Shown here: positions 34,601 to 62,726 of the stretch, in pieces
How positions within the stretch are numbered: the stretch's first letter is position 1
Layout: every line of letters begins with the position of its first letter
Assembly: GCA_043228905.1 (NCBI GenBank)
Contig: JBHGNT010000013.1
Coordinates: 18,662,001-18,726,000, forward strand
Direction: 5' to 3'
Length of the DNA stretch: 64,000 bases
DNA from: Azolla caroliniana
Lineage: Eukaryota; Plantae; Polypodiophyta
Made by a program: the position numbers and the translations under genes
Notes under the pieces: generated by a model
What the model was told of the DNA's origin: nothing
Seen by the model: only the letters and a program-made list of their open reading frames with translations
Database searches by the model: none

Positions 34601-36903
34601 GAAACCGATGCCTCTGACTTTGCCATTGGCGCCATCTTATCCCAGGCAAACGATAACAACCTAATGCACCCAGTGGCTTACTATTCCCGAAAATTTACGG
34701 CATTCGAAATCAATTATCCTATTTACGACAAGGAGCTTGCTGCTATCATTGCTGCCTTTGAAGAATGGCGACCCTACTTGGCCGGCGCACAACATCGTGT
34801 CCAGGTAGTGACTGATCATAAAAATTTAGTTTATTTTTCCACCACTCGTACTTTGAATCGAAGGTAGGCCCGTTGTTCGACATTTCTCGCTGACTACGAT
34901 TTTGAGATCGTATTTCGACTTGGTGGCCAACATGGGAAGGCTGATGCCCTTTCTCGCCGAGCTGACCTTGCACTCCGCCCTGGGGATGTTGCTTATGCTC
35001 AACAATCTAGACGTTTGTTGAAACCCGACCAATTGCATCTTTTTGCCACTTGTATGTTGCAGGATGATTCTTTACTCCAACAAATCACTGATGCATCCAA
35101 GACCGATGCGTTCGCCAACGAGATTCGAGATAATCTGCAAAACCCCTCCAAGGCGACCAAAAGGAAGGATCTTGACACCTTCACCATACAAGAGGGTTTG
35201 TTGTTCCGAGATCATCTCTTATATGTCCCAAAGGGCCCATGTTGCACCCGAGTGTTGCGGGAATGCCACGATGACCCACTTGCAGGTCATTTCGGGGTCG
35301 CGAAAACCCTCGAGCTAATCTCTCGGGGTAATTGGTGGCCACAACCATGGAAGTTGGTCAAAGAATACATAAAGAGTTGTGAGGTTTGTGCTCGCTCCAA
35401 AGCCATTCATCATCGGCCATATGGCTTACTACAGCTGCTTCCATGTCCTCGTCGTCCTTGGGCCTCTATCTCTATGGACCTGATAACTAATCTACCCTTG
35501 GTCAATAGCTATGACTCAGTGTTGGTCGTTGTCAATCAGTTTACGAAGATGGCTCACTTCACTCCATGCTCCAAAACCATTTCCGGAGAAGGAATGGTGC
35601 ATCTACTACTCAACAATGTGGTACGCTTGCATGGACTCCCTAATGATGTCATCTCGGATCGCGGACCCTAGTTTGTCTCTCACTTCTGGCAGCCTGCTAC
35701 AAACTTTAGGCATCTCTGTCAAGTTGTCCTCCGCTTATAACCCCCAAACTGATGGGCAAACGGAGCGTGTCAACCAAATCCTTGAGCAGTATCTTCGGTG
35801 CTCGGTTAGTTACCAACAAGATGATTGGGTCAACTTACTTTCGCTCGCGGAATTCGCCTACAATAATTCTCTCCATGCATCGACTGGCGTCACTCCCTTC
35901 TTTGCCAACTATGGTTTACATCCTCGCTTCAACATTTCCCTTCCTACCACTTCCGTGAACCCTTCGGCGCAGGATCGCGCCCGCATTTTGGAAGAACTAC
36001 ATCATGATTTATCCTTGGAGCTTAGTCTTGCTAGTGAACGATACAAGAAGCAGGCTGATCGCCATCGATCTTCCACTCCACACTTTGTCGTTGGAGACAT
36101 GGTCTGGTTGTTATGTTGACACATCTCTACTACTCGTCCATGTGCGAAACTTGATTACAAGAAGTTGGGACCATTCTGTATCATCGAGTGCATCAATCCC
36201 GTCGCCTTCCGGCTCGCCCTTCCATCCCACTTCCGGATTCACGATGTTTTTCATGTCTCCCTCCTCGAACTCCATTATGCTTCACAACTCCCAGGACGTC
36301 AGGCCCCACCACCACCACCTGTGCAATTGACGATAGGGGAGGAATACGAGGTTGACCAAATCCTTGACTCGCGTTGGCACCGTCGACACTTGCAATACCT
36401 CGTCCTATGGAGGGGTTACCCCATGTCTGAGGCCATGTGGGAACCATCGGGAAATTTACAAAATGCCCAGAGGTCGTCCAAGATTTTCATCACCGATATC
36501 CCCACAAACCAGCGGCCGATTTGGGAAGGCAGCGTAGGAGGGGGGATAATGTCAAGATTCGAACTCTTGACACGACCATGTTATAATCTAGTATTATGAG
36601 TTAACCAAGATATCTAGTACATAGTTATGTATGTAATTGGTCCTTATTATTTTGCTAGCATCATGTGCATAGTTGCTCCCTTGTAGTATTTACACTTGGC
36701 ACATGCATGCATACCTACATGCTCTATTGTAGATTCACATGCGTGCAACAAGTATGCATGCCATGTAGTATAAATAGAGGAGTTCACCTTGAAGGAATTC
36801 AAGGTGAACAACACTAGTTATGGAGTCTTTCCTTTAATACTATCTTCTTTCTTGTCCATTTGGTTATCTTCTTGCTTGTCTCTTGAGCTTATAATCCGTG
36901 ACA
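31621..36903 (+). mobile_element. Element C: Tcn1/Tf1-sushi-type chromovirus inserted in B's 5' LTR
   Basis: 354-bp LTRs 31621-31974 and 36550-36903 (1 mismatch seen), TSD GGTAC, PPT aggagggggga, no tRNA PBS. gag PEKFDG..PMEID..RRANGLCMYCG..GH..C; RT YLDDILIFS; RH ETDASD; IN; chromodomain EEYEVDQILDSR..QYLVLWRGYP..WEP. Confidence 0.95.
32025..36530 (+). pseudogene. Element C gag-pol, disrupted
   Basis: ORF fragments 32025-32576, 32828-33040, 33046-33579, 33650-34867, 35015-35671, ~35690-36119 and from 36165. Premature stops near 32633, 34865, 35669 and 36117; protease DSG mutated to DSR. Confidence 0.92.
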
Positions 36904-38112
36904 GGTACGACTCGACGCCACGGTAGTGGGATGGGACGCCGATTGAGGCTCGAGTCCATCTCGATCCCTTCGCTCGGGGGTGGTGGTTGGATCGGCACCC
37001 TTCTTTCTCTCTCTCTTCTCTATTTAGATCTATCTATTCATCTATATTCCATCCTTATCTAATGCTTACATTAGTTCATGTCTCTAACAGTTGGTATCAG
37101 AGCTCATTTTCTAATGTTTCTTTTGTTGTCTTTTGTTTTCTTGATTGATGGCGATCGATTTACGTGCGGTCGGCCTTCATGCAGACAAGGATCAACAAAG
37201 GAACTTCGGTAATCTTTCTTGTTTTTTTTTGTCTATTTTTTTCTTCTCCCATCTAATCATGTGTATGGTTAATATGTAATTTTTTTCATTAATTCAATGA
37301 TGTTGTAGTGGTAATTCATTGGTTGTATAAAACGTTTACATATGTGTATGAGGTCAATACCTCATTTGACGTATATTGATTATGTGATGAGTGTCGTATG
37401 CGCACAAGGTTAATACCTCAATTGCGTATTACATTCACAAACATATGTTACGTTTGCGTATGAGGTCAATACCTCGATTCGTTGTAAATGATATGTGTTT
37501 GGTCTCGTATGCGTAAGAGGTCAATACCTCAATTGCGTATTACGATTAACCTTTATTTTTGGTATATGCCTCGATTGCGTATCTCAATTACGTCATTTTT
37601 GGCTATTAAATATAACGATTTGTTTAATATAGGTATATGTGGTCACGTGTATACGTAGTTGATCGTATATATGTGATAATATACATATGTGTATATAAGT
37701 TATTACGTGATTTTAAATCGAATGTTTTCCTTTTTGGGGAAAGGATCTTGGTGGTCATCCTCACATTTTTGTGAGAATAGCGTTGTCACCATCCCTTTTT
37801 TCAACAATTTTTTATTGTTGAAATCCCCATTGGTGACTTTGATATTTCGTTACGTAAAGAAATGCCTATAGCCATAATGATGTTGAGAACGTAGGGCTTG
37901 ACCCATTTCATGTGAGGTCGCTCCTATGACACACGTATCCAACATCCCTCCCTCATTACATGGATACGATGCCACCATGAAATCATTCTTATGAGAGATA
38001 TTCATAATGATGTGACCATGTGATGGGTTTTTGTCCGCCGGAATAGTAACCGACGGCCAAAAGCGTAGGAATAAGAAACTATATAAAGCGTAACATATGT
38101 AACGGTTCACGA

Positions 38113-38807
38113 TGTCGTGAAGAAAACCGTCCCCGGGCGCAAACCGTGTATAGCGTGTGTCAACCGACCCTTACACGTGGGCACGCCCCTTGTTGTATAA
38201 TAGATAGGTAGGCACAAAAGTCAAATCCTAGGTAGCAATATTCTATAGGGAGAATCGAGGAGTATCTCTGTCCGAAAGGACAGAGAATTAATGTGATGTA
38301 AACAGGTGAAAACGGTCTCCCTCCTTGAGATATAAAAGAGAGGTAGACGGGGAGAGAGGGGTATCGCGCGCGAGAGGGGACGAAGTGTTGTCGGACTGGG
38401 ACCGAGCTCCTCTTCTCTGTCATTCTCCATTGCTTTCTTTTGCGCAGGTTCTCGAGAGGCTGATTCTGCTCCGTGGAACGCCCGTGTGCTTCCGGCAGAA
38501 TCTCCATCTTGCTCCCCTGCGCGCGTGGGTTATCAGGCGTCGGTATCCATCTAGCCGACCTGATCGGTTGTAACCGTTCGCGTCGTCTGCATACATATAT
38601 TTATATACGTACACTAGTGTTCATATACTCTATTCCCCTTTCAACTCGTGTCTCCTGTGTTGTTGGGCCACGTTCCCGTGCGCTTCTTTGTCTATACATG
38701 TGAGAGCGTGTCTCTCTCTCTCTCTCTCCCCTTTTCTCACCTATTCCTCGGTCCAAGACCCCAATGGTCCCGCCTTGTTCTCCACGCACGCGCGTAACAA
38801 TGCGACA
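38113..38807 (+). mobile_element. Solo LTR F inserted in D's 5' LTR
   Basis: TGTCG..CGACA termini; absent from D's 3' LTR (empty site ttcACGCgggg); flanks ACGA/ACGC. The last ~55 nt match the ends of the E and G LTRs. Confidence 0.88.
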
Positions 38808-39457
38808 ACGCGGGGAAGCGTGAACGACTAATTAGACCATGCATATATAAAGGGCAGAAAACCTCTTAAGGAGGTGCGTGTAAATTTTGGGAAATGTAAA
38901 AGAACGCTTGATAATAGAATACTATCTTCTCTGAGTTTCTGTGTATAGGTACGACTAATTCAGTGTCTGTGTCTCGGATACGTAATCGTAGTAGTACGTA
39001 AGCGCAACCTGTGATAAGGAGTCGGTTGTAGCCGTCTCCCCTTACACACGGAGGAATCACAGAGGTTCTCTCCTTACGTAGTACGATTAAAGCTCTGTTC
39101 GTTGTTCCACACCCACCTTGGGGTCTAGGTCGAAGGACTGACCATGGACCGTGTTCCTAAGAGGCAACACTTTTGGCACGCTTGGTGATCTGTGTTTCCT
39201 CACAGACGAACAACAACGAATGGATGTTTAGCTGCAGACGACCCAGAGAACCAACAAGACAAGACCGGCCAATAACAAGGTCGGTCACACGCCAGGCAGA
39301 AGAATGCGCCCGGCAAAAGCCACGCATCGGCGACCCCAGTAATACCTGCCAGGAGTGCAAAGGGGATTCCTTGCTCCCCAAATACCTCGACGAGGCGAGG
39401 GGACCACACTTACCGCAACCACCCGGTGACCTTTTCCGATCCGCCGTAGCTCCCACG

Positions 39458-42400
39458 ATGGCCTTTGCCTACCCCCGCTTTAATGGCGAAACCGACACCG
39501 CAACTCATATTCGCATGTTCTTAAACGTTTGGAATGCAAACCACATGGCACAGAACCTTTCCGAGACGGTGTCGCGTTGTTACGCGCGTGCGTGTGGAAG
39601 GGGCGGGACCACGGGGGTCTTTGGCTAGGGAGAAGAGGAGAAAGGTTAAGACAACGAATGGAAGATTAGCTCATAGCTCAAGAGGAGAAGAGAACGAATA
39701 TGACATTATGATAGAAGAAGATGAAGAAGATGAAGAAGATGGAGTCAAGATACTCAACAAGAAGTTCGATTAAGAAAACATAAACGCTTTACAATGGTGG
39801 CCGCCATGGCCGCACCAAACGACTATAAGAAAACCCTAAAGGAAAACCCAAGAAGAAAACCCTAACCGAACCCTAACGCTCGACCTATGTGGTATACCTC
39901 GCACACTCAAAATAGGCAACCCCCACAATGGTGCCTTCTCTCTCCTTTTATAGCACAAGGAGGGAAGACCGTTTACAAAAGTGAGACTAAAATATCCCCT
40001 TTCATTCAAAGGGGATATTTGCCTTGATTTGGGGGAGGGTGAGATTGATGGCCCCTTAACTCCCACCTCCTCACAAACGACTAGGTACCTATGTACCGCA
40101 TAGTACCTCTCTCTCTCTCTCCCGCGTGGATGTGCGTACAACCACATCACCTTTATACCTTTATTACTATTACAAATACATTATGTACGTGTGCAACGTT
40201 GCACATCGCTCTTTGGCTCTCGTTGCTCGGGTTTCCGCTTGTGGACGAAAATCTTCACGACAACGGTGGCACACCAGTCGAAAATGACGGAGTTCGGATT
40301 AACATTAGATGGGTGTGCGGTGTTCTGGCATTCACAGATGGATTTACCAGCCATAACAACCTTCGATCAACTGCAGTCCGTCTTCTTGCGTTTTTTCCAC
40401 CGGAGGGTTCCACAACGCGAGATTCTCGGGCAGTTTTATAGAATTAAGCAACTACCGACTGAGACGATAGCAGACTTCAGCTTACAGTTCCAAAATTTAC
40501 GACGGAAACTAGATCGAAGCCCTGCGGAGGAGGAGGCTCGGGAGACATTTCTAGCAGCGTTACGTCGGCCCATCCGAGCAACACTCAACAGCAATAGCGT
40601 GAAAGGGGAAACGGCGGATATGGTGATTGAACGAGCGTTACAACTCGAATTGGATGACGAGGAGGAGAGGTTTTCGATGTCATCCTTACGACAAGCGTTA
40701 CCTCAGGATGAGGAACGCCAATTTCGTCAGGCAATCCAGTGCACGATTTGCTTGAACTCGGGGCATTCCGCGATGGAGTGCAATATGCGAATCCACTGCC
40801 CAATCTGCCACTCGAAGGTTCACATAGTCGACCAATGCGAGTACAATATGTTAAACAGGGCCACGCCCGCGGTCCGCAGCATGGACACACAGTGGCAACC
40901 ACATCGAGCGGAACAAAGGAGGCAAGAAGACCGACCCTGGTATAAGGATCGCAACCCACGGGAGGACAGGTACAACCGAAATCGCCAGAATCACAACGAG
41001 TCCGAGGAGGAGGACCCGGAAGACGAGGATTATCGTGGACATTCGAGTTACGCCAAAGGGGGTCGGCGATACGAACATCAACGCCCGATAAACAAACGGG
41101 GCGGCTTCAATGGCTATCGAGGTAAGCCTCGACAATATAGCGATCACCGGCGTTACGACGAAAGCTCGGGGGATGAGTGGCACCAGGAACAACGACGGGA
41201 TCAACAGCAGCCACCGCGTACGTCCCGCCAAACGAGGCCGGACCGCGAGGAGCAAGTAGCGCCCGTAGAACGACACACTCCACCTGGGGTTGAGAAGGGA
41301 GAATCAAGCATCCATTGTTTTATTTGTCAGCAACCCGGACATTATGCCACACAATGCCCAACATGCAAGGGAAAGGGGCCCGCCGTCAACACGATTACAG
41401 CGGAGGTGCAACAAGTCACGACACGCTAGAAAACGAAAACGGCGGATTGGGTTGCGCAGGACGAGGTACGACGACAAGCCCAAGCCTGGGTGGAAAAAGC
41501 AAACGCGACCAATACGGAACGTATGAGGCAGGAGTCCGCGAACGCAATGAAGCGAACAGAGAACGAAAAACTGGGGCCGGACCCCATTTGGCAAGTGTTA
41601 GCGGGCTGTGAAATCACGCTAATTATGGAAAAACTGCTACAGCTAGTTCCACGTTTCCGCCAGACCATGGAAGCACAGGTGGCGGGCATGACCGGGTCGA
41701 GCGTTGCCACAAACCTGACTGACGTCAGCGAGGGACCACCAGTGGTAGATCAGCACAACCCGGCCATTACAGTAATATTGCACGGAGAGGAAGTCCCTGG
41801 ATGTGTAATCGACGGCGGCTCAGGCGTCAATGTGATTAACGCAAAAACTTGCGAACAGTTGGGCATTTCCGAATGGGAGGCGTGTCCATTCTGGCTTCGC
41901 ATGGCAGATACCCGATCAGTGCGGCCGTTGGGGCTAATTCGCAAAATAGGCATCATCGTGGGCGGACACCGCTTCGACATATCGGCGGTCGTCCTCGCTT
42001 TGGATGCGCCAGGAGCATACCCAGTGCTTCTGGGCAGACAATGGCTTCAGACAGAAAATATCAAGCAGAGCTGGCAACACGAGTGTATCAGTTTCCGGCA
42101 GGGACGCATCAAGGTTCGTGTTCCTACGAAAGGCAATACGCCCCAACCTAAGGGGATAACACCGTTGTATGCGGAAGACATCAATATGTTGGCTGGGGTG
42201 GAGAATGCCGAATTGGAAGCGTACCTTGACGAACATCCTCGGATTATTCCATTGTTCGAGATAGATGTCATCGCAACTGCGGCAGAATATACTACGGCCA
42301 TTGTTCCGAGCGAAGAGCCGTACGAACCAAACCCAGAGTCCATATTGGAACTCAGCAGAGCACAGGCGGCCTTCGAAAGGGAAATGGAGATTTCATGACG

Positions 42401-45277
42401 GGTCACCGCCTCCGCTCTCGACGAAGTAAATGTGGGTACGGGATCGGAACCCCGGTTCCTCTCCATAGCAAAAGAATTGAGGCCGGACCAGAGAACCACA
42501 ATGATCGCACTACTCACGGAATATAAAGATGTGTTTGCGTGGGCTCATGAGGACATGAAGGGGTTAGATCCCAAATTCTATCAGCATAAGATCAATTTAG
42601 CAACGGACGCGAAACTTGTCCAGCAGCGTCGCTACCGCATGAACCCCAATTACGCGACCCGCGTGAAAGAAGAAATTGACAAGCTGTTGAGGGCTGGGTT
42701 CATACGGCCAGTAAAACAAGCGACATGGCTTGGCCCGATAGTGGTTGTCCCAAAGAAAAACGGCAAAATACGGGTATGCGTGGATTACCGGAAATTAAAC
42801 GTCGTAACCATTACAGATGCATTTCCCTTACCCTTCACCGATAGCGTGTTGGACGCCGTCGCAGGCCATGACATGTACAGTTTCTTAGATGGCTTCAGTG
42901 GCTATAACCAAGTACGCATGCACCCCGACGACCAGGAGAAGACGACATTTGTCACGGACTGGGGAGTATATGTGGCGGTCGTCATGATGTTCGGGCTAAA
43001 GACAGCACCGGCAACATTCCAACAAACGATTATGGAGATCTTTGGGGAATACATTCCGGCATTCATGCAAGTCTTTTTAGACGATTTTGCGGTATATGGC
43101 CGAACAAAAGACCATTTCTCGCACTTACGTCTCTGCCTGGAACGTTGCCGCACCGCAAGCTTAAGCCAGAATCCCGCGAAATGTGCCTTCGGCGTGACCA
43201 GCAGGACTCTCCTAGGCCACATAGTCAGCAAGGAAGGAATAGCGGTCGACCCAAACAAGATCTCCGCTATTACGCAAGCTAAAACTCCGACAAATGCCAA
43301 AGCACTTACCGGTTTCTGGGCCAAATACGGTGGCATAGTCGGATGATACGGTATTTGGCGGACTTCGCCACGCCACTACACGCTGTCGTACATCGGACTC
43401 CTTTCCAATGGATTGCAACAGAGGATAAGGCCTATGAGGCACTTAAGATAATGCTCACGCAAGCGCCTGTAGTACAACCTCCAATTTGGGCGAAGCCATT
43501 CCACGTGTTAGTCGACGCCTCGGACATAGCAATAGGAAGCGCGCTAATGCAACTCACCGAACCAAATTGGTACAGGCCAGTATACTACGCAAGTCGTAAA
43601 TTATCAGCAGCAGAGCGTAACTATTCCACAACAGAGCGGGAGGCGCTAGGGATGATCTATAGCATCAATAAATTCCGACATTATTTACTGGGACGGAAAT
43701 TCACGTTCCACGTGGATCATTCAACATTATTGTATTTGGTAGAGAAACAAGCCCTGACAGGGAAATTGGTGCGGTGGATGCTGCTGCTCCAGGAATTCGA
43801 GTTCGTAATTCAGCACCGGCCAGGGACGCAACACGTAGTGGCGGATTTTTTGAGCAGACTTGAGAATGGAGAAACAGTACAAAAAGACGACGACGATTTT
43901 CCGGATGCCGACATTTGGCGAGTAGCGACATTTGTAGAAAAAACGAAATCGACCTTTCTGGATCGATGGCTTATGGAAATGACGTACTTTTTGACTACAG
44001 GACTACCTCCACCACAATTAAGCACAGACGAGAAGAAATGACTAGCCGTCCGAAGCCGTCACTTCTGCCTCGTCGAAGGAATTTTATATCACAAAGGAAG
44101 TGACGGCATTTGGCAACGCGGAGTCCGTAAGGATGAGAAGGAAGCAGTTTTACGGGAGGCACACTACGGCACGGCCGGCGGCCATTACGCAGGCGACGTG
44201 ACAACCCGCAAAGTATGGCAGGCGGGCTTATGATGGCCAACAACGCAGAAGGACGCATCCGAGTATTGTAGAAAGTGTGATTTGTGCCAGTGGATGGGTC
44301 AGCCCGCGGAGGACGCAAGGATGCCACACCAGCCCGTATTACCACTAGACCCCTTCCAAAAGTGGGGATTGGATTTTGTGGGGCCCTTCACACCAGCAGC
44401 AGACCGTACGGGCAACAAATACATATTGGTAGCCACGAATTACTGTACCAAATGGGAAGAACCAAAGGCACTACGGGAAAATACGGCGGCCGTCACAGCC
44501 AAATTTCTGTACAAGCACATCTGGTGCCGGTTCGACTGCCCGATTGAGCTCATCAGTGACCAGGGGAGCCACTTCCTCAATACGGTGGTTCGGGAACTAA
44601 CACAGCATTACGTAGTCGTCCACAAGAAAAGCACGCCATACTACCCGCAGGCGAATGGATTAGCGGAATCCACGAACAAAACTTTACAGACCATTTTGAA
44701 GAAAACCGTCAATGAAAACAGAACGGACTGGGATACCAAACTCCAGAGTGCGTTATGGGCGTACAGAACTAGTTACAAAACAAGCATACGGTCAACACCG
44801 TTCCGGCTAGCGTTTGGACTAGAAGCGGTAATGCCGGTCGAATTTCGGGTACCTAGTTTGCGCATTCAGGTACGGAACCGATTATCAGAAGCCAAGTCAG
44901 AGGAGGAACGACTCTACCAACTCCTTGAACTAGGGGAGAAATGCATCCACAACATGGCTATGTTGGAAGAAGAACAGCGACGGCGTAAAGCATTTGTCGA
45001 TCGACATCGGAGCGCAAGGGAAAAGGAGTTTGCCGTGGGCCGAGCGGTGCTAGTTTTTCAAACGCGCATGGGCCAGATGTCGGGTAAGCTACGTTTCCGC
45101 TGGACCGGCCCATACTGGATAATTGGAGCGGAACAGGGCACGTTCCAACTAGGAACACTGGCTGGATAAATAGTACGGCAAAAAGTGAATGGGTTTCGGC
45201 TCAAACCTTCCCTAGGCCCTACGCCATCTAACCCATTCACCGCCGAACGGGACAAAGCCGGAGAACCCGCAGCGTAA
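39458..45277 (+). pseudogene. Element D gag-pol, interrupted by solo LTR G and several stops
   Basis: Removing 39570-40266 restores QNLSETV-AHQSKMTEFGL. ORF pieces 40191-41429, 41490-42398, 42432-43346, 43343-44041, 44282-45169. Confidence 0.9.
39570..40262 (-). mobile_element. Solo LTR G inserted in D gag, inverted relative to F and E
   Basis: TGTCG..CGACA termini with perfect 4-bp TSD ACGG. Reverse complement starts tgtcgtgaagattttcg and ends ccaagacccccgtggtcccgcc..cgcgcgtaacaacgcgaca. Confidence 0.9.
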
Positions 45278-45628
45278 AAGGGACAGGCCCAATTGTACTA
45301 TAATGTAAAAATAGGGGGTAACTAACCGTTAGGAAAAAAAAAAAAAAAATTGAAAAAAGAAAAGAAAAGAAGAGAAGATAGCGACTATTAAAACGACTAA
45401 AGGCATGCACAAACTCCTAGTTCAAGAACACGCGGCACCACGATGGCTCACCGCCCAATGAACCCTAAGCCACAAAAAGAAGGAAATAGAAGGTTTTCTG
45501 CACAAAGCAGAAACACAACGTCTAGCTATCAGCGCTCCCATCACTCCTCCTCACCTTCTTCCCCATCACATCTCAGAGCTCCAACTCACCACTGCTACCC
45601 GTCGCCTCTCCACGAACCTACTCTGGCG

Positions 45629-47732
45629 ATGCCGATCTTCATCTCTACTGCCCTACGCCGATGGCTCGTGGAGAAGCGCTTGGATGGTTATATTCGGGTC
45701 GCAGAAGCACCTCCGCACCCGGACACCATGGACATCGCCAGGCGGCTTAACATCGACACGGTCACAAACTCTTCCATTCGGAAGAAGTTAGACCTATCCT
45801 CACTAAGCGAAAGACATTTCGAAATACCTCCTACAGAGGCGTTGCAGCGGTATTTTGGCCCATACTCATCCTCCGCCAAAGCCTATAGAACAAAACAGAT
45901 TCCGGATCCCTTCTTCCGTGAAGTTGCCAAGTTCCTACTGGAAGTAGGCTGCGTCCATGTCAACGCTTACGGGATGCCTAAACAGAAGGCGGGCATCATT
46001 ATCGACACCTTTGAGGGGCGTACAGTCGACTGGGGGATCATCACAGGGCCGACGTTAAGGGAAGGCTTGCATGCGTACCAAGCAGGCAAAAAGCTCAGGC
46101 CAATCATCCAACAATACCTTACGGTACTGTTTCCACCCCGAGACCTACTAGCACCACAGCCCAGCCAACCCACGGCCCCGCCCCGCTCCGCGAAACACAG
46201 GTTAGCGGAGTTAGCGGCCCCAGAGTGGGAGGAAGAACCCCAACCGGCCCAACGAGACCCAAGGACAACACCTCCTACCGACCAACCGGATACACGGGCA
46301 ACGCAGGAGGAACAACCGAGACACCCCATGGAGGCAGCCCCAGAACCAGACACCGAAGCACGGGGGGAAAGCCCTAGATCCAAACGGCGCAGATTGGACA
46401 GAAAAGATGGGCGGGGGTTGGTAAAAAACGCTCCCACAGATCCGGAGGCACCGACCGCAGGCGAAGGCCCCGCAACAGCAGAGCCGAATACCACCTTCGA
46501 AATCATCCGGGAGCCGCGGCCGATTATTACGACTCAATCCCAGCGAGGGAAAGTCGTATTGACGGCGGAAAGCAAGGTTTTGGCATATCCGGATATTCCG
46601 GATACGGCCCACGAATTCAGCGCCCTCTTGCAGTTCGGTACCTCTTTCGAGCTCATGGAGTTCCTGGCAACACAACAGGTCAAAGCCGCCCAATGCATGG
46701 CCGAGGAGCATGCAGAATGACAGATGATAGAGTGCGCCCTAACACAAACAACGGCTAGCCAGGGTCGGCAGACAGAGGAACGCTGGGGTACGGCGAGTAG
46801 GGATGGAGATACCACCCTTAAACACGGCCCTAGTCGAAGTCCATCGGGAACTGGCAAAGGTCAGCACGGGCGCCAAGGAGATGGCCATAAAAAATAAGAA
46901 TGTCTGGAAGAAGGTTAAACTGACCGAAGCCGAACTACAAAAGGCCAACGCACGCATCGCGGAGTTAGAAGCTCATACGACTACGGCGCAACACGAAACC
47001 CTGCCACCGAACCACGTTATCAACGCTCTCAAAGAAAAAATAGAGGCTCAGACTGCCATCGCCTCAAAATAGAGGGTTTTATAAGCTAAACGAGGAGAGC
47101 ATTGTGACCGTACGGGAGGACCTAGCGCAAGACTATCGCGCGTTAGCAGACCAACACTCCGAAGAACTCGCACAACTCCTAGACGATTTTGGTGAAAGTC
47201 AGGAGGAGCTATTTCACCAGATCACACAAACCGGCAACATGCACACAAACGAGGAACCCAGCGAGACACCAATTCCGGTCACAACCGAAGAAGAGGAACC
47301 TCAGGTCCGATCACCAGCGAGGACAACGAGGGAGAATAGCGGGGACGAACGAGCGGAGTTCCCCACAAGACCAGACAGCGAAACCATTAACCAACAAAAG
47401 GTCCAGCCCACACCATCTTCAGAAAACGCGGAAAATAGTGCGGACCAGGCGGAATCCCCACCCCACGCCCAGGGACACACAAAAACGGCCAACACCACGG
47501 AGGACGTAACAATAGAGGCGGAGCAACAGCCGACTGCAAGCACGCTACCGGCGGAGCCCAGCCCACGAACTCAAGAAGAGCCCACCGTACCCGGACCACC
47601 CGCACACGGCGAAGGCGACTTCAGGAGAAACCAGGCCGACCAAGCAGAGGAGCCGCACCACGATGCACTATGGGCCCTACATCAACTCCGGCCGAGGACT
47701 CCACAACAGAGCCGAATATCCGGGGCATTTTG
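45629..47732 (+). pseudogene. Element D extra ORF (env-like position), unknown function
   Basis: Sense ORF pieces downstream of IN (45443-46720, 46803-47072, 47104 onward): a ~170-aa ordered-looking N-terminal region (..IIDTFEGRTVDWGII..), a P/E/T-rich linker and a coiled-coil-like segment. Confidence 0.65.
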
Positions 47733-48360
47733 TGTTGGGAAACAGGTCCCTCCGGATGGGAAGGTAGAAGAACAGCGCCGACGAACAAACTCGGCCGAGG
47801 CCGACAGGCCGAGGCCGAACCGGTATGAACCGGATGAGGAGTACCCGACTGCGGAGAGTCGGATGGTGCAGGCCCGGTATGAACCAGATGAGGAGTACCC
47901 GACTGCGGAGAGCCGGATGGAGCCCATCGTGGCTACATTTGTAAATAGCCGAAAAGTCATATTTGTATAAATATGACTTAGGGCAAACTTTTAGTAGTGG
48001 TTGTCATTCTTGTTGTCATTCCTTCTTGTTGGTGCAAGAAGAGATTAGAGCGCGTAACTGTACAGAGAGAGAGAGAGAGACGAGGTCGTTGCCTCTGTTG
48101 TAACCGCCGCCTGTGGCGAAGATCTGTGAGCACGAGGTCGTTGCCTTAGTGATCTCACTGTTGTATATTTCTGCATAGTGACAGTTTGCAGGTTGTGGGC
48201 TGCCGTGGTTTTTCCCCTATTTTGGGGTTTTCCACGTATACCTCCTGTGTACCATTTCTCCTCTTTTCTTGTCGCGTTTTTCATTACCTGTTTTTCTGTG
48301 TATGTAAAGAATCTCGGTTGTGGCCGAGCATTGGACATAAGGAACGTTAAGTTCTCAACA
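47733..48360 (+). mobile_element. Solo LTR H (copia-like appearance) in D's 3' region
   Basis: TGTTG..CAACA termini with perfect 5-bp TSD TTTTG; TATAAATA at ~47966; internal ~54-bp tandem duplication (~47820-47920). Superfamily assignment is uncertain. Confidence 0.85.
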
Positions 48361-48991
48361 TTTTGAAAGAAGATTAACGGGATGGGTCCGACGTGCAAAG
48401 GCACTGTCCCACAGGCGTGCCAGGTGTTGTCCGCCGGAATAGTAACCGACGGCCAAAAGCGTAGGAATAAGAAACTATATAAAGCGTAACGTATGTAACG
48501 GTTCACGCGGGGAAGCGTGAACGGCTAATTAGACCATGCATATATAAAGGGCAGAAAACCTCTTAAGGAGGTGCGTGTAAATTTTGGGAAATGTAAAAGA
48601 ACGCCTGATAATAGAATACTATCTTCTCTGAGTTTCTGTGTATAGCTATGACTAATTCAGTGTCTGTGTCTCGGATACGTAATCGTAGTAGTACGTAAGC
48701 GCAACCTGTGATAAGGAGTCGGTTGTAGCCGTCTCCCCTTACACATGGAGGAATCACAGAGGTTCTCTCCTTACGTAGTACGATTAAGCTCTTTTCGTTG
48801 TTCCACACCCACCTTGGGGTCTAGGTCGAAGGACTGACCACGGACCGTGTTCCTAAGAGCCAACATGGGCCACGTGGGCCTACTACGAAAAGAGGGCTCA
48901 TTTGGCTTGACCATTAGGTTGCACTTTGGCGTATGCCATCGTAATTACGAGACTTGAGGTTAGGTAACATACCAACATAGTTGTGCACTCA

Positions 48992-49178
48992 CCCTTGTGT
49001 AATTGTGTGAATAATAGGAGTTAAGTCGGGACAAAGAATCCCATGTAAATCGGGATTTATCCCACATTGTAACGCATCCCTCTCCTTGTTCTATAAAAGG
49101 AAGGGATGGTCCCTTGTAGAAGGGTTGCCCATTTTGTATTAGTAGCGTATACCGTTAGACGGAGAAATGTTCTCTCTT

Positions 49179-49220
<42 letters not shown>

Positions 49221-49562
49221 TAGGGTTTTTCTTTCTCTTGCTCTCCTCTACTTCTTCTTCTTCGTCCTTCTGTGCATCAAGCCTTGGCATCTAGCGTTCC
49301 AGTTTTCTGCCATGTACTCTGTGCAAGACCCCGCTCGGCGTGACAAGCTCGAGATCTCCCCAACCGGCGGCTTGGCAGTAGACCACGGTTGTATCTCGTG
49401 CGACCTAGGTCCGGCTTGAAATCGGTGTTGAATCTCGTTGTCTTGTAAATACATATACATTTGGTTGTGCATATTCGGGTCTCTGTTGGTGTGTGTGTGT
49501 GTGTCTTAATGTTTCTTTCTTGCTTATGTACTTGTTCGTGCGAGAGTCAATGTTGCATGTCT

Positions 49563-49597
<35 letters not shown>

Positions 49598-52500
49598 TCA
49601 ACTACTTCCGGTGTGTTCCAGGGGTGCCCCGGAAAGGGTGAAGCACGACTTCCTACGCTCCGTCACTCCCTAGTCCAAGACCCCCGTGGTCCCGCCTTTC
49701 TCCACGCACGCGCGAAACTTCGCGACATCTTTGATGAACCCGACGTGAAAAGCGGCAAGGGAGGATGGAGTCGGAAGACGATGACCTCGCGGTGATGGTG
49801 GCCGAAGTGGTGTTGGAGTCTGCACGAGTGGTGATGAGGCAAGAAGTAGCGCAACAAGCGGTTGAGCGAGTGGTCGAAAGAGTCGGTCGTTTCAACGGGG
49901 ACAAAGTCCCATCTTACTTGGAAGCCTACAACGCGGAAATAGAGGAGCGAGACGTGGACGAAGCGTTGAGGCTGGAGTTCTTCTATCGGGTTGTCGCCGT
50001 CCGAATGCACGCGGAAGTGAAGGAGCTCCGAGAAGCTCATAGTTCGTGGGAGGCCTTTGAAGAGGCACTCCGGCAGGCATATGGAGGACGGCGGAAGAGC
50101 CGGGGACGGCACGACTTCGACCAGTGGGTAGCAATGGCAAAGACCCACCGAGGCGCAACGAAGGCGTTCCGAGAGTTCGAGCGACGGCTTGCTCGGCTTC
50201 CAGAGCGGGAACAAGGTTTGGTGGGGGCGGACAAAGTCCTATTGTTCGTCAGGTCGATCGACTGAGCGGAACGGGAGGCCATCGGGATTGAGCTCGAAGA
50301 CGATGACGGAGCGAATGGACTTACGGAGGACTGGTCGAAGGTCGGAAGGGTGTGCCAACGGCTAGACAACGAGCGAGCCGAGAAGGCTCAGAGGAAGAGG
50401 TGCGACGGCGTGCCATCACAACGGGAAGAGGCAGAATGGCAAAGAGAGTCGACAAGGGTCGGCGTTGGGGCCATGATTGCGAATGTGTACGCAGCTCTCG
50501 AGGCGATGCTCGAGGAAGAGGAAAGATCGAGGCCGCAAGCCAAGATTGAGGAGACGGACTTGCCCCACACGATGACAGAAGATCGGTACCACGGTACCAC
50601 GGGAGAGGGTGCAGAACAAAACGCCCTCTCGACTTGCGGAGATAGAACGGCCAAGGACGAGGCCGAGATACCAGTCGCGGGATCGGAACGTTCGAACCAG
50701 CGGTGTTGGGCGTGCCAGCCCGAAACCCCGGTCATTGGAGAAGCAAGCCCAGACGGGGCTTGCGCGATCGGTAAGGAAATGACCGCCGACCACGAAGAGC
50801 CGGTGGCTACGGACAAGGGCATAAAACGAACGGTCGATTCTTTGTGTATTCCCACACTTGCTCCCGAGACGATGGCAATCGGGCCCAAGTGCCCACGTGA
50901 GTCCCAAGAGGAGGAAGGCGGCGACGAGAGACCAAGAATCACCGGCGAGACGATACGGGGAAGGAGCGGACAAAAGCCCTCGAACCCGATTCCGGAGAAC
51001 TCGGCATTCGGGCCCGTATGCCCATGTAAGACCGAGGAGATGGATGGCGGTACCGAGGAGTCCTAGCACGATGCCAGCGAAGATGGATGGGAGATGGCCA
51101 ACGAAAAGGTTGACGAAGAGACCAAGGAATGACCCGACCGGGGACCGAACCGCGTGACGCTCCGATACGGGTGGAGCGTAATCCGGTCGTGGATTGTTCG
51201 ATCGGGGCCGGATTCGGCATAAAGGTGCCGATACGAGAGAGGGTGCGGGACGAGCCGCCCTCTTTTACATGGGGAGAAAGACCGACCGGGCGAAGGTCGG
51301 GAATGGAAGGAGGGTGATCAGAGGTTCGGAACGAGTCTGGCAAGATCGGCATCAGAGCCGAAACTCCAGACATTGGAGAATCAAGCTCAGGCAGGGCTTG
51401 ATTGATCACAGAGCGGATGCTATCCACCGACACCACTAAAAGGGGCGGTGGCCCGGACGAGTTGCCGAAAGACGTTGCGAAATCGGTTATGCCACATCCT
51501 ATCCGGAGATTGCGGTTGTTCGGCCGACGGGGCAACGTAAGACCAAAAGAGATGGAAGATGGAGGCGGGAACGCAGCAACGAGAGCGACGACGAGTTTGG
51601 GAGAAGTACGGGGATGAAGAGGAGAACGAAGACCGGTCCCATGAGATCTTCACACCAATCCGGCTGTCAGCCCGAGTGCCGGCGTGAGTCCTATAAGAGA
51701 GGTCGGTGGCAACAGGAGAACGGGACCCGGCAATCCGGAGAATGACGAACGGACCCAGACGAGAACCGGGCGGAGCAGACTCCCGGATAACCATTCTGGG
51801 AGGGAGGAAGAGAGCAATCCTATGAAGAGGCCGAGAACACGGTACGTCGGTACCACGGGAGAGGGTGTGGAGCGAGCCACCCTCTCGGCTTGCGAAGGAA
51901 GGAAGACCCGGGATAAGGGTCAAGGATACGAGGAGCCCAAGGAGGATCCTTCACACCAGATCTAGAGACTTCGGCAATCGGCAACGCGGTCGACGTAAGA
52001 CCAAGATACTGACGGTGGCGACGAGGGGACAAGGGCGGAAACGGCGAGAGAGGAAGTCCCACGAAGACACTCACACCGATCCGGAGACTCCGGCGGCAGG
52101 CTAGCAAGAGCCAGCGTGAGACCTAGGGAGATGGACGGTGGCGGCAGGAGAATGTGATCGGACGACAGGAGGCGACGAACGGCAAGGAGGTATGAGGCCG
52201 GCAAGGCGGCTACAGACCATCTCAAACCTTCCGGCAAGGTCAACGGGCGTAAGGAAGTCCGGTCCTACGGGATCCCCACACCGAACCAGAGACTTCGGCA
52301 GTTCGGCCAACGTGGCAACATGAGACCAAGAGAGAAGGTTGGTGGCGGTGGGAAACAGGACCCGACTACGCAAAGGACTCCGACAAAAGACATCCTGAAT
52401 TTCGGCAAGCAACAAAACAAAGACCGGTCCTATGGGATCTTCACACCGGTTCTAGAGACCCCGGCTGTTCGTCCAACGTGGCAACGTAAGACCGAGGGAG

Positions 52501-55500
52501 AAGGAAGGTGGCGGCAAGGAACGGGACCCGACGACACGAGATAATGGATCGGGAGTCGGTAAGACAGGGGAGGACGAAGTGCGAAACCCATACCGGTCGG
52601 TTACAGTTTCGGAAGGAACCGGTAGGGGGCAAACACGGGGAGGTGTGTCGGGCCGGAAAGGCACACCTAGGACGGAACAAGAGTCGTGGGCCGGATCGAA
52701 GCGTGACTACGGGTTGGTGTTCGGCACGGGCGGTGCCGAACAAAGGAAGCGGAAGACGGCACAAGGGAGGTGACGGGTGCATAGTGGACTGCACAGGGTC
52801 GGAGTCAAGGGATGACAAGGGAGTCCGGAGGAGGATCCTCCACATCCACTTCGTAGATCTCGGCCAGACAGTCAGAGTAATGAAGACTGACACGTCAAGC
52901 CCGGGATGACAAGCTGGTGGGGGCGATGGGACGACGGCAAGCGGAAGACTCAGGACCTGTTGCTGCAGCGCAAGACGGGAAGGGTCAAGCGGGCTACTAC
53001 GAGGTGTTCCTCGGAGGCGGAGGACACCGGTATGCGGATGAGCAGCGATGTACGATCTGGCCGGAAAGGGGCCGACAAGGTGTGCAATAAACCGGCGTAC
53101 GGCATAGGCAGTGCCAAACAACGGACGAGCATATGCGGCGCACGGAGGTGCCGGCGCGGAAAGGCGAGCGCGAAGATGGGTTGCGCGGTTCGGAGGTAGC
53201 GTTGTCGCAAAGTTTTGCGCACGTGTGTTACTTGGGCGGGACCGCGGGGATCTTGGACTAGGGAGTACTCAAGGGATAGAGGAGACCCGAGGTTTGCTTT
53301 ACGACAATACTACTTCCCGACCCCTTCCCGAGCAAGGTCTCGTTGCCCTTTGTTTTGTGAGGCCGGTGGCTCTTGTTGATCACGACTCGTTGACCTTCCG
53401 AGGTCACCGCACGAGCCAAGTGACCAAACAAGTACAAGCAAGATGAGCACGCAACATGAACACACAAGGGGACGATAACACAAACACGAATGTCCGTACA
53501 TCTTTATGAGGAGGAGAGGTGCATGGGTACGCCCGAACACTCCCTCTTCACAAGACGTCTAACGTACTAGGAAGACACAAAACACATGCACAAAATGCTC
53601 GTACGCCTTTATGAGGAGGAGAGGTGCATGGGCAAGCCCGAACGGTCCCCTCGTCACAAGACGGCCGAACGTACAAGGAAGACAAACACACGCACAAAAT
53701 GCACGTACGCCTTTATGACGAGGAGAGGTGCATGGGCAAGCCCGAACGGTCCCCTCGTCACAAGATGGCCAAACGTACGAGGAAGACACAAACACACACA
53801 CAAATACTTGTACGCCTTTATGAGGAGGAGAGGTGCATGGGCACGCCCGAACGGTCCCCTCGTCACAAGACGTCTAACGTACGAGGAAGACACAAAACAC
53901 ATGCACAAAATGCTCGTACGCCTTTATGAGGAGGAGAGGTGCATGGGCAAGCCCGAACGGTCCCCTCGTCACAAGACGGCCGAACGTACAAGGAAGACAC
54001 AAACACACGCACAAAATGCACGTACGCCTTTATGACGAGGAGAGGTGCATGGGCAAGCCCGAACGGTCCCCTCGTCACAAGACGGCCGAACGTACAAGGA
54101 AGACACAAACACACGCACAAAATGCACGTACGCCTTTATGAGGAGGAGAGGTGCATGGGCAAGCCCGAACGGTCCCCTCGTCACAAGACGGCCGAACGTA
54201 CAAGGAAGACACAAACACACGCACAAAATGCACGTACGCCTTTATGAGGAGGAGAGGTGCATGGGCAAGCCCGAACGGTCCCCTCGTCACAAGACGGCTG
54301 AACGTACAAGGAAGACACAAACACACGCACAAAATGCACGTACACCTTTATGAGGAGGAGAGGTGCATGGGCAAGCCCGAACGGTCCCCTCGTCACAAGA
54401 CGACCGAACGTACAAGGAAGACACGAATAAAGAAAGGAGAGAAAGAAACATGAATGATATCGACCAAAAAGATAAATACGTGTTTGATTCCAACGCAAGA
54501 GGACCCTTTATAAAATAGGGTTTTGTTTACAATGGCAACTTATAGTTAACCACAAGCTCAATCAAAACATAAATATTAAATGCCCTTAGAGACAGCAAAT
54601 TCGAACACGGCGAAGATGAACACACGAGCACCACCAAAATGCCAATCCCAACGAACCACAACAGCGCGTACAAGGCCAGAGAAGGATCCTCCACACCATT
54701 CCGGAGACCATGGCGGTTCGAGCCGACGTGGCGACGTAAGACCATGGACAAGGAAGGTGGCGACGAGAGGACGAAGGCAACGCAAAACAACATGGGATGG
54801 CAATCAGGACAACACGAATGGTCGACGGAGGCCAAGCGGGCCACTACGGGCGTTCCTCAAGCGGAGGACATCGGGCATACGACGGAGAACGGAGCGTGCA
54901 TACGGCCTAACAAGGGCCAGCGGAAGTATGCGTACCACAGAGATCGCGGCAAAGGACCCATCGACGGGTCGAACGAGCCTACGGGGAGGTAAGCTCGAAG
55001 GAAGAATCGAAGCCGACGGTTCAAACCGGCAGCGAGCCGGGATGCGGATTACGGAAGACCGGTTTCTCACCGGCCGAAATCTCTCACCCTTCACCGGATT
55101 TGGCACGTACCAGTGGACGTGTGGTTAGGTGGGGGCGGATGTCATGAAGAATTTTGTCTAGAGGCGGAAACCGGGAAATATTGGCTACATCGGCGGGGTG
55201 CCCTTGTGTAATTGTGTGAATAATAGGAGTTAAGTCAGGACAAAGAATCCCATGTAAATCGGGATTTATCCCACATTGTAACGCATCCCTCTCCTTGTTC
55301 TATAAAAGGAAGGGATGGTCCCTTGTAGAAGGGTTGCCCATTTTGTATTAGTAGGGTATACCATTAGACGGAGAAATGTTCTCTCTTTCTCTCTCTCTCT
55401 TGTTCTAGGGTTTTTCTTTCTCTTGCTCTCCTCTACTTCTTCTTCTTCGTCCTTCTGTGCATCAAGCCTTGGCATCTAGCGTTCCAGTTTTCTGCCCTAT

Positions 55501-55900
55501 ACTCTGTGCAAGACCCCGCTCGGCGCGACAAGCCCGAGAGCTCCTCGACCGGCGGTTTGGCAGTAGACAACGGTTGTATCTCATGCGACCTAGGTTCGGC
55601 TTGAAGTCGGTGTTGAATCTCGTTTTCTTGTAAATACATATACATTTGGTTGTGCATATTCGGGTCTCTGTTGGTGTGCGTGTGTGTGTCTTAGTGTTTC
55701 TTTCTTGCTTATGTACATGTTCGTGCGAGAGTCAATGTTGTGTGCCTGCTCTCTCTCTCTCTCTCTCCCTTCAGCTGCTTCCGGTGTGTTCCAGGGGTGC
55801 CCCGGAAAGGGTGAAGCATGACTTCCTACGCTCCGTCACTCCCTAGTCCAAGACCCCCGTGGTCCCGCCTTTCTCCACGCACGCGCGAAACTTAGCGACA
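48992..55900 (+). mobile_element. Element E: large non-autonomous LTR element (LARD-like), tRNA-Trp-type PBS
   Basis: 3' LTR 55140-55900 (TGTCA..CGACA); 5' LTR 48992-49727 lacks the first 61 bp; about 96% identical. PBS TGATGAACCCGACGTGAA 49732-49749; PPT aggtgggggcgga. gag-like N-terminus 49765-50265 (RFNGDKVPSYLEAY..WEAFEEALRQAY). No RT/RH recognisable. Confidence 0.88.
53475..54425. repeat. Tandem array of ~9 x 105-106-bp units inside element E
   Basis: Unit gtacgcctttatgaggaggagaggtgcatgggcaagcccgaacggtcccctcgtcacaagacggccgaacgtacaaggaagacacaaacacacgcacaaaatgcac. Variant pattern suggests a ~315-bp higher-order duplication. Confidence 0.95.
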
Positions 55901-55904
55901 ACGA

Positions 55905-58900
55905 GTATATCAATGGATCTCCCATACAATTTTTGTTTGATTCAAGAAGCTCATACAACTTTCTAAATGATCGTTTTGTTTAGATATGGGGAATCCAACC
56001 CACCGTAAGTGATCACACCTATACGATGCACTTGGCCGATGGAAGAGTACAATACATCAATGAGGCGATTCATTCATTGGGAATTTCTATCGATACTTAT
56101 ATAGGAAAGTAGACTTCCATGTAATGAATCTTTGTACCACTGATGTAATCTTGGGTTATCCCTAGTTCTATAATAAAAACTCTTCTTTATCTATCGATTG
56201 GGTTCATCATTCCATTTCCTTTGTACTGAACGATTGTACTCATTTTATTCAATGTGTAAAAAAACAATCCCTCTCGATTGTTTCCTCTCCATCAATATCC
56301 GAGTTGTCTTGTTCTACTCTATTTTATTGTGTACTTGATCCGGACATTCACGTTTACAATATCGATAATGTCTCGGTTCAATTAACATATTTTGAACAAC
56401 AGCAACTTGATGGAATCTTAAATGATTTTCGTGATGTTTTTCCGAGTGAATTACCAGATGGTTTACCTCCTAAACGTAATATAGACCATCGTATAGATAT
56501 TGTACCTGGCATTGCACCAATAAGTGTACCTCCATATCGCTTAAGTCGATCTGAAGAGGATGAGGTAGCTAAGCAACTCAAGGACTATTTACGAATGGGT
56601 TATATACGTTATAGCAAATCTCCATGGGGGGCACCAGTTCTCTTGGTTAAAAAGAAAGAGGGCACATGGCGTATGTGTATTAATTACCGACGCTTGAATA
56701 AAGTGACGATCAAGAATTCGTATCCATTGCCCCGGGCTGACGATCTAATTGACCGTCTCCAGGGAGCTCGGTATTTTACAAAACTTGATCTCCGTACTGG
56801 CTACCATCAAATTCGTATAAGTGAGGACGATGTTCCTAAAACGGCATTTCGTACGCGCTATGGCCATTATGAGTTTTTGGTTATGCCTTTTGGTTTGACC
56901 AATGCTCCGGCTACATTTCAACAAGAAATGAATTACATTTTCCGAGAACAACTTGGAAAATTTTGTCGTTATTTTCTTGGATGATATTTTAGTTTATAGC
57001 CGTACATTACAAGAACATGCTAAACATGTCCGCTTTGTTTTACAAACATTGCGTGACAAACAGTTTTACATGAAGATCTCAAAATGTGAGTTCTTCAAGA
57101 AATCAATTACTTATCTTGGACATCTCATTACCGAACGAGGAGTTGAAATTGATCCTTCTCACATCAACAAAATCAAGCTTTGGCCCACTCTTCGGAACAT
57201 TCGAGAAGTTCAATCATTCCTTGGTTTTGTCGGGTTTTTGCGAAAATCCCTTCGTAATTACTCCCAATTGACGATGTCATTTACTGATCTTCTAAAAGGT
57301 CAAACGCATAAGTCTACAAAACCTATTGTCTTGAATGCTACACTAGACCTCACCTTTAAGGAACTCAAGGACCTGGTGTGCAAGGCTCCTTCACTTCTTT
57401 TACTCGATCCTTCAAAACCTTTTGAGGTTGAAATCAATGCAAGCGATTATGCTATAGGTGTTGTCTTATATCAAGATGGTAAACCAATAGCATTCAAGAG
57501 TAAGAAACTTGATTCTGCTCAATGTCGGTATACTGTTCAAGAAAAGGAATTATTTGCAGTTATACATGCACTCAAAACATGGTGCCATTATCTTTATGGA
57601 AATCGCTTTGTGGTAACTACGGACCACGAGTCCTTGAAATATTTTTGTGACCAACAAGACCTCAAAGGTCGTAAGGCACGATGGGTTGATCTCATCCAGG
57701 ACTTTGATTTTTCCATACGATATCGTAAAGGTTCCATGAACACTGTCGCTAATGCACTAAGTCGCATTTGTGAAGTTAACATGCTTAGCTTCATTAAAAT
57801 ATCATCAGATCTTTATGATCACCTTCGAGGAAGTATCATGATGACAGTTATTTTGCAGAATATTGGGCAAGAGTTGAGTTTGGAACAGACACCACCACAT
57901 CCTCGAAGGAATACTTCCACATTGCTAACGGTCTGCTCTATCGTAATGGGAAGGTTTGTGTTCTAGATTTGCCTAAGGTCAAAAATAGAATTCTTTTTTA
58001 ATGCCATGATGCACCCTCAGCAGGGCACCCTGGAATACATTGTACACTCGTTCTCATCTCCACTCAATTTTATTGGCCTAAGATGTGTCGTGACATACAT
58101 AACTATGTGACTAAATGTCACCAATGTCAGGTTAAGAAAGCCGAGCGACTTAAAGCCGCAGGACTTTTACATCCCTTGGACATTCCCAATAATAAGTGGG
58201 AAAGTATATCCATGGATTTTATTGTTAGCCTTCCTCACACCCAAAAAGGCCATGATGCCATCTGGGTTGTGGTTGATAGACTAACTAAAATGGCCAGATT
58301 TATTGCTACTAAAACCACGATAACATCTCCTAAATTGGCTTACCAATTTGTTGACGAGTTATTTCGTTTTTATGGCTTACCGATGGATATCGTGAGTGAT
58401 CGAGATCCAAAGTTTACTAGTGACTTCTAGACGCAATCCACGGATCATCCTCAATCCGATGGACAGACAGAACAAGTAAATCAAATTATTGAGGACATGC
58501 TTCGAGCATATGTTGGTGCAAAACCAACAAAATGGGAACGTTATCTCCCAATTTTGGAGTTTGCTTATAATAGCTCCAAGCATATGTCAACGGGATATAG
58601 TCCTTTTATGTTGATGTATGGTTTTCAGCCACGAGCCCCAATTGATGTTAATATACATCATGATGAGTTGCGAAGTACACAAAACTTTCTTCGGGATATG
58701 CAAGATATGTTGCATATTGCACGAGATAATATAAAAACAGCTCAAGATAGAGCGCGTTTTTATGTTGATCATCATAGGCAACCTCGTGTATTCAACCCTG
58801 GACAGAAGGTATTTTTACGCATACCTCACAATTCTAAGACATTGTGTAAGGGTAAGTGCGCTAAGTTAGCCCCACAGTTTTGTGGACCTTTTACAGTCCT

Positions 58901-62721: not shown

Positions 62722-62726
62722 TAACG

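What the first reader, a model, noticed from the sequence alone, without database searches (positions are those of the whole stretch)
38109..55904. Three related LTR insertions (F, G, E) all hit 4-bp NCGN targets, suggesting CpG-centred integration
Seen: F is flanked by ACGA/ACGC (empty site ACGC in D's other LTR), G by ACGG/ACGG, and E's surviving right flank is ACGA. All three share TGTCRTGAAGA starts and a conserved ~55-nt end (ccaagaccccNNtggtcccgcc..cacgcacgcgcg.aac..gcgaca) while their LTR interiors differ strongly. B, C, D and H have 5-bp TSDs with no such bias. Inference: a lineage with a 4-bp stagger whose integrase prefers a central CpG. In an AT-rich, CpG-poor background this would steer it into young CpG-rich TEs and away from genes. 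The sample is only three, and E has one flank only.
Basis: partly seen in the sequence, partly recalled or inferred. Interest (0 to 1): 0.7.

Follow-up and report, generated by a model that had tools for sequence, protein, structure and literature searches.

The report
Retrotransposon lineage that inserts at CpG
A family of plant jumping genes with well over a thousand copies of its end repeat lands almost only on a CG pair and duplicates four bases around it, a habit already published for the moss lineage Phygy, to which this family likely belongs.

Summary
Genome-wide, 827 of 1004 LTR ends not followed by the primer leader have CG at positions 2-3 (background 3.6%). On contig 1, all 106 host flanks read CG or its decay products CA/TG; 21 of 22 paired flanks match at 4 bp, none at 5 bp. 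Coding partners exist: gag-PR-RT-RH-IN, tRNA-Trp primer site, no chromodomain, no extra RNase H. These are the published marks of Phygy, which Neumann et al. 2019 describe as preferring NCGN. No labelled Phygy sequence could be compared, so membership rests on diagnostics, not a tree. Added here: the rule looks near-absolute, avoids T at position 1 and A at position 4, and extends to relatives in other genomes. Look-ups in this scan's earlier notes found no NCGN report.

The parts
38109..38112 (+). left target-site copy of F, ACGA
38113..38807 (+). F: solo LTR, 695 bp, inserted in D's 5' LTR; 88% identical over its length to the LTR of coding element L061
38808..38811 (+). right target-site copy of F, ACGC
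39566..39569 (+). target-site copy of G, ACGG
39570..40262 (-). G: solo LTR, 693 bp, inserted between D's primer site and gag
40263..40266 (+). target-site copy of G, ACGG
48505..48508 (+). empty site for F in D's 3' LTR, ACGC
48992..49727 (+). E 5' LTR, first 61 bp and left flank deleted; 96.6% identical to the 3' LTR at aligned sites
49732..49749 (+). E primer-binding site, complementary to the 3' end of host tRNA-Trp(CCA), one mismatch
49738..51066 (+). E gag-like frames, broken by a stop; first frame about 40% identical to gag of the coding partners; no pol found in E-type copies
53199..53202 (+). target-site copy of the fourth LTR, GCGT
54664..54667 (+). target-site copy of the fourth LTR, GCGC
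55121..55139 (+). E polypurine-type tract, shared by the whole family
55140..55900 (+). E 3' LTR, 761 bp
55901..55904 (+). right target-site copy of E, ACGA; ACGG or ACGA in empty host copies
38029..48865 (+). D: host of F and G; unrelated gypsy element, 5-bp duplication (control family)
31336..59711 (+). chromodomain-bearing gypsy element that hosts E; 5-bp duplication CCCAT

Best explanation
F, G, E and the fourth LTR are copies of one Ty3/gypsy lineage, likely Phygy, that inserts with a 4-bp duplication centred on CG, likely because its integrase itself reads the central CG. Shown: coding members carry gag, protease, RT, RNase H and integrase and a tRNA-Trp primer site; E is a non-coding derivative that keeps the same ends; F, G and the fourth are solo LTRs. 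Shown: the target is CG at positions 2-3, mostly A or C at 1, seldom A at 4; CA and TG versions are later decay, since one of the two copies is still CG in 22 of 22 pairs. Inferred: the conserved ~55-nt end and TGTCG...CGACA termini are the cis signals that let one integrase type move all subfamilies. Inferred: a 4-bp stagger needs a sharp kink at a flexible pyrimidine-purine step, and base contacts narrow that to CG. Inferred: the bias for CpG-rich, repeat-rich DNA follows largely from where CGs are.
For: 827 of 1004 genome-wide ends have CG, 942 of 1004 CG or a V-pyrimidine-purine decay form. 106 of 106 contig-1 flanks are CG/CA/TG, none TA. 21 of 22 pairs match at 4 bp with at most one mismatch, 0 of 22 at 5 bp. 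Controls: CG at positions 2-3 in 1 of 17 and 1 of 19 flanks of two other families. A 4-bp element in the same window uses ATAT. Primer site matches tRNA-Trp genes. No chromodomain; RNase H end to zinc finger is only about 380 nt in 4 of 4 coding copies. The Phygy table gives 4 bp (100%) NCGN and tRNA-Trp 81%. Flank CpG density equals the random-CpG expectation, 5.86 against 5.81. Retroviral 4-bp integrases also favour a central YR step and avoid T first and A last (PMC4422553).
Against: No labelled Phygy protein was available, so the clade link is untested. Three of four coding copies (7.0, 7.0, 7.0, 7.8 kb) are shorter than the Phygy range of 7.66-9.97 kb. Phygy was defined from one moss; the named relatives found here are from Riccia and Adiantum. 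No biochemistry: a host factor could supply the specificity. CpG-poor flanks are rarer than sequence alone predicts (2 of 106 against 12.6%). All coding copies seen are broken by stops or frameshifts.
Confidence: 0.8

Rival explanations
1. The integrase or a host partner reads methylated CpG, so insertion is aimed at silenced DNA rather than at the bare sequence.
For: Only 2 of 106 flanks lie in CpG-poor DNA against 12.6% expected from random CpGs. Target CGs decayed to TG/CA in one copy of 7 of 22 pairs, so they were likely methylated at some time. 16 of 61 right flanks match the family itself, against 8 of 60 random windows.
Against: Decay can follow insertion: 51 of 379 CpGs in LTR pairs decayed likewise. 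Selection against insertions in genes would also empty CpG-poor DNA. No chromodomain or methyl-binding domain was found by Pfam in the integrase. The background rests on 20 stretches of 10 kb. No methylation data were available.
Confidence: 0.2
2. The family is a separate lineage (for example TatI-like, or a sister of Phygy) that reached NCGN targeting on its own.
For: TatI also has 4-bp duplications and a tRNA-Trp primer. The elements are shorter than Phygy. Drosophila ZAM-group elements target CGCG independently (PMC5408687).
Against: TatI always has the extra RNase H; there is no room for it here. RT is only 25% identical to the OTA-like element D. The paper names Phygy as the only plant lineage with a target motif.
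Confidence: 0.12
3. The CG bias is only generic flexibility: a 4-bp stagger prefers any pyrimidine-purine step, and CpG-rich nesting does the rest.
For: Retroviruses with 4-bp duplications enrich central YR steps.
Against: Their enrichment averages 63% over random. Here TA is 0 of 106 and every pair keeps one CG copy. Even in the family's own flanks CG is about 6% of positions.
Confidence: 0.03
4. The flanking CG is an artefact of misplaced LTR ends or of duplicated loci.
For: The LTR ends are themselves CG-rich, and one duplicated locus was found and dropped.
Against: Ends are fixed by the primer site and polypurine tract on the inner side. Empty sites show the same four bases once. Bases 6-12 of the right flanks are mixed.
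Confidence: 0.01

Closest known systems
Phygy (non-chromovirus Ty3/gypsy; Neumann et al. 2019, PMC6317226; passages and Additional file 5 read)
   Same: 4-bp NCGN duplication, tRNA-Trp primer site, no chromodomain, no extra RNase H, no extra ORF, polyprotein filling the interior.
   Different: Defined from Physcomitrium patens alone. Here three of four coding copies are shorter (about 7.0 kb), there are many non-coding derivatives and diverged LTR subfamilies, and the motif is resolved further (T1 and A4 avoided). Sequence identity to Phygy could not be measured.
TatI and Selgy (same paper)
   Same: 4-bp duplications; TatI also uses tRNA-Trp.
   Different: No target motif is reported for them. 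TatI has the extra RNase H; Selgy uses tRNA-Ala.
Drosophila ZAM-subgroup errantiviruses (PMC5408687, passages read)
   Same: Gypsy elements with a palindromic, CG-rich target (CGCG).
   Different: Animal elements with env and AGT/AnT ends. Their target is CGCG, not one central CG; not compared by sequence here.
Retroviral integrases with a 4-bp stagger, PFV and MoMLV (PMC4422553, abstract and one section read)
   Same: Central YR step favoured, T first and A last avoided.
   Different: Their bias is weak (about 63% above random) and covers any YR step; here it is close to absolute for CG.

Membership tests
Ty3/gypsy | domain order PR-RT-RH-IN between TG...CA LTRs | tested here: met
   4 of 4 coding copies
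Phygy | 4-bp target duplication | tested here: met
   21 of 22 pairs at 4 bp, 0 at 5 bp
Phygy | NCGN target motif | tested here: met
   827 of 1004 genome-wide; 106 of 106 CG/CA/TG on contig 1
Phygy | tRNA-Trp primer-binding site | tested here: met
   complement of tRNA-Trp(CCA) genes found in the genome; 5 of 5 scanned loci called Trp
Phygy | no chromodomain | tested here: met
   none in the integrase tail of L143 or in five full-length homologues; the same scan finds it in two neighbours
Phygy | no extra (archaeal-type) RNase H and no extra ORF | tested here: met
   about 380 nt from RNase H end to zinc finger, integrase tail within about 360 nt of the 3' LTR in L061 and L072; a weak RVT_3 hit overlaps the ordinary RNase H
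Phygy | length 7656-9968 bp | tested here: inconclusive
   6958, 7014, 7037 and 7806 bp; 1 of 4 in range; the paper calls size of little weight for classification
Phygy | shared clade with P. patens Phygy in RT/RH/IN trees (the formal definition) | not testable with these tools
   reference FASTA too large to read; no named moss hit. The RT groups with Riccia and Adiantum proteins, far from D, C and H
TatI | extra RNase H domain | tested here: not met
   no room between RNase H and integrase
Chromovirus (Galadriel, Tcn1) | chromodomain; Met or self primer | tested here: not met
   RT 26-27% identical to the window's chromodomain elements
Selgy | tRNA-Ala primer site | tested here: not met
   primer site is tRNA-Trp

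The most novel reading that the evidence does not exclude
This is an old clade, spread from liverworts to ferns, whose chromodomain-less integrase has an all but absolute need for a CpG and prefers it methylated. It would be a retrotransposon that finds silenced DNA by reading the methyl mark at the cut site itself, and a natural CpG-specific integrase.
Probability: 0.2. Interest if true: 0.7.

Novelty: new member of a known kind. Interest (0 to 1): 0.33.

Why it matters
Almost all plant LTR retrotransposons insert with little sequence preference; Phygy is the one exception named in the reference survey, in one sentence and one table cell. My searches found no study of its mechanism. This genome gives about a thousand CG-rich, readable sites, shows the rule is near-absolute, and suggests it holds beyond one moss. 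That makes a clean test system for how an integrase reads a central dinucleotide and whether methylation matters. The basic fact is not new.

Tried and rejected
Looking for a labelled Phygy sequence: three homologue searches, one cluster look-up and the paper's supplements gave none. Host identity: the U-box exon gave only distant named hits (Ginkgo-type id 47%, flowering plants 37-38%) and sequencing runs carry coded names; no RNA holder listed. The literature search for NCGN was swamped by a kidney disease; the P. patens RLG paper gave no target data in the passages seen. The Atlas search of the integrase returned generic rve clusters only. One search had a bug that flooded the output; it was redone. 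Rejected: generic YR flexibility and misplaced ends (see rivals). Not supported: extra steering into repeats compared with 5-bp families (the repeat test used only 1.09 Mb of fetched DNA, enriched for these families). Position 4 of left copies shows fewer C than right copies (5 of 45 against 15 of 61), which would fit CHG decay next to the LTR's TG, but P = 0.11. No structure or complex prediction was run; it would not decide the question.

Full report
What is in the window. F is a 695-bp solo LTR at 38113-38807 with flanks ACGA/ACGC; the empty site in D's other LTR reads ACGC. G is a 693-bp solo LTR on the minus strand at 39570-40262 with ACGG on both sides. E has a 3' LTR at 55140-55900 followed by ACGA and a 5' LTR that has lost its first 61 bases. 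Other copies of E's host element read ACGG or ACGA at that spot in the six of seven loci printed, and more than a kilobase of host DNA left of E is missing, so E's left flank was deleted. A fourth relative was missed: a 1461-bp solo LTR at 53203-54663 (minus) inside E, flanks GCGT/GCGC; other E copies lack it. Three neighbours have 5-bp duplications. The outermost element, 30767-60541, has a 4-bp ATAT duplication.

Genome-wide count. A 22-letter motif from the shared end occurs 2155 times. A tight pattern for the last 21 bases occurs 1673 times. Of these, 669 are followed by T-N-T, the leader of the primer site after 5' LTRs. Of the other 1004, 827 (82%) are followed by N-C-G. V-pyrimidine-purine follows 921 and T-C-G 21, so 942 of 1004 (94%) are CG or a form reachable by its decay. 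The remaining 62 were not inspected; some are primer leaders of other spelling. Only 21 of 827 CG sites begin with T, against 33% of background NCGN words. The pattern is itself CG-rich, so it favours little-decayed copies.

Site-by-site check. I fetched the first 100 listed ends on contig 1 (plus loci already held). The script returned 99 after dropping one exact duplicate. By eye I moved L133 to the 5' LTR class, treated the left side of L172 as polypurine tract and dropped the left side of L059. Right host flanks: 53 CG, 4 CA, 4 TG of 61. Left host flanks: 37 CG, 4 CA, 4 TG of 45. No other dinucleotide occurs. In 22 insertions with both flanks, 11 match exactly and 10 with one mismatch at 4 bp; none matches at 5 or 6 bp. 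In all 22 at least one copy is CG, so CA and TG arose after insertion. The 106 flanks stand for at most 84 insertions. Background from 20 evenly spaced 10-kb stretches is 3.55% CG and 42% GC. Two control families have CG at positions 2-3 in 1 of 17 and 1 of 19 right flanks. T at position 1 or A at position 4 occurs in 6 of 61, against 55% expected.

The elements. Among 20 fetched LTR pairs, four regions held RT of this family; two more coding copies came with the contig-1 sample. L061, L072, L143 and L157 run gag, protease, RT, RNase H, integrase and are 7.0-7.8 kb long, each broken by stops or frameshifts. F's LTR is 88% identical to that of L061. E-type copies keep a gag-like frame about 40% identical to the coding partners and gave no pol hit. 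LTR pairs are 95.0-98.5% identical in eight elements of this lineage. The primer site is the complement of the 3' end of tRNA-Trp(CCA), whose genes are in this genome. Pfam finds no chromodomain, though it finds one in two neighbours. The gap from RNase H to the integrase zinc finger is about 380 nt, too short for an extra RNase H.

Relatives. The RT is 50-70% identical to proteins named from Riccia and Adiantum, up to 84% to unnamed proteins, and 25-27% to the other three gypsy elements of the window. In a 40-row tree it falls in a supported group with them, though the outgroups are long branches. Of 80 metagenome loci that encode relatives, 37 show the same tRNA-Trp site. Host flanks fixed by a second LTR copy are NCGN in 5 of 5 (L263 twice, L271, L275, L301). 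Four more, judged by the start motif alone, read ACGC, ACGT, ACAG and ACTT. These are collapsed short-read contigs, most with related names, so they are weak and not independent.

What is known. Neumann et al. 2019 (PMC6317226; passages, Additional file 5 read whole) state that Phygy elements prefer NCGN, the one exception among plant LTR lineages. The table gives 4 bp (100%, NCGN), tRNA-Trp 81%, 7656-9968 bp, no extra domain or ORF. The element list and protein FASTA were too large to read; they bear directly on membership. PMC6911290 (passages) reports GC-rich centres in 4-bp duplications and Phygy nested in Tcn1 elements in P. patens. PMC12885004 (passages) reports Phygy in a liverwort. PMC5408687 (passages) gives CGCG targets for Drosophila ZAM-group elements. 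PMC4422553 (abstract and one section) gives the YR preference and the T-first, A-last avoidance of 4-bp retroviral integrases. Searches listed no paper on the mechanism of Phygy targeting; the library lacks most subscription journals.

Mechanism. Shown: 4-bp stagger, central CG, T1/A4 avoidance, shared ends across diverged LTRs. Inferred: the integrase kinks the target at the central step, as retroviral 4-bp integrases do, and base contacts narrow the choice to CG. Flexibility alone does not explain it, since TA never occurs. A host factor or a methyl mark cannot be excluded.

Steering. Flanks of 300 bp hold 5.86 CpG per 100 bp, against 3.55 at random positions and 3.69 for the control families (P = 6e-8). 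Choosing any CpG at random predicts 5.81. So the pull towards CpG-rich DNA is real and its mean needs nothing beyond the sequence rule. CpG-poor flanks are rarer than that rule predicts (2 of 106 against 12.6%), which fits either methyl reading or selection. Flanks are repeats in 52 of 61 cases, more than random windows (33 of 60) but the same as the controls (30 of 36). Avoidance of genes as a special effect of CG targeting is therefore not shown.

Verdict. Real, strong and well quantified, but a likely new member of the known Phygy kind. The gain is a near-absolute rule, a finer motif and a wider host range. Interest 0.33.

Noticed in passing
window 48415-48424 and 39174-39181: Element D has no polypurine tract: a reverse-complement copy of its primer site lies 2 nt before the 3' LTR. 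Earlier notes of this scan describe the same in other windows of this genome as possible double tRNA priming.
   Followed up: partly
window 30767-60541 (-): Outermost LTR element with short LTRs (~150-195 bp), a 4-bp ATAT duplication and a primer site that I recall as tRNA-Ala type (not tested). This combination resembles Selgy in the table.
   Followed up: partly
window 30767-60541: One nest of eight LTR insertions: outer element, chromodomain element 31336-59711, element 31621-36903 in its LTR, D, F and G in D, E, and the fourth LTR in E.
   Followed up: partly
window 53458-54427: Tandem array of ~105-bp units inside the fourth LTR; copy number differs between family members.
   Followed up: no
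window 45401-47970: D carries long extra frames after integrase with no Pfam match.
   Followed up: no
G000:C8:17796786-17823370, G000:C16:4989496-5105657, G000:C5:10105608-10112200: Clusters and tandem arrays of a tRNA-Trp 3' motif, 65 matches genome-wide, many spaced 0.9-1.3 kb apart. Only five loci outside these arrays were scanned and confirmed as tRNA genes.
   Followed up: no
L259:1440-1500: Another copy of the chromodomain host element has a family LTR inserted at an ACGT 8 bp from the site E uses.
   Followed up: no
window 25202-28768 (-): Host gene with U-box and ARM repeats, about 2 kb from the nest.
   Followed up: partly
window 18486-20057: Frame that looks like the endonuclease and RT of a LINE; not scanned.
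   Followed up: no
window 60546-60626 and 62669-62748: 81-bp inverted repeat pair, 81% identical, possibly a DNA transposon.
   Followed up: no
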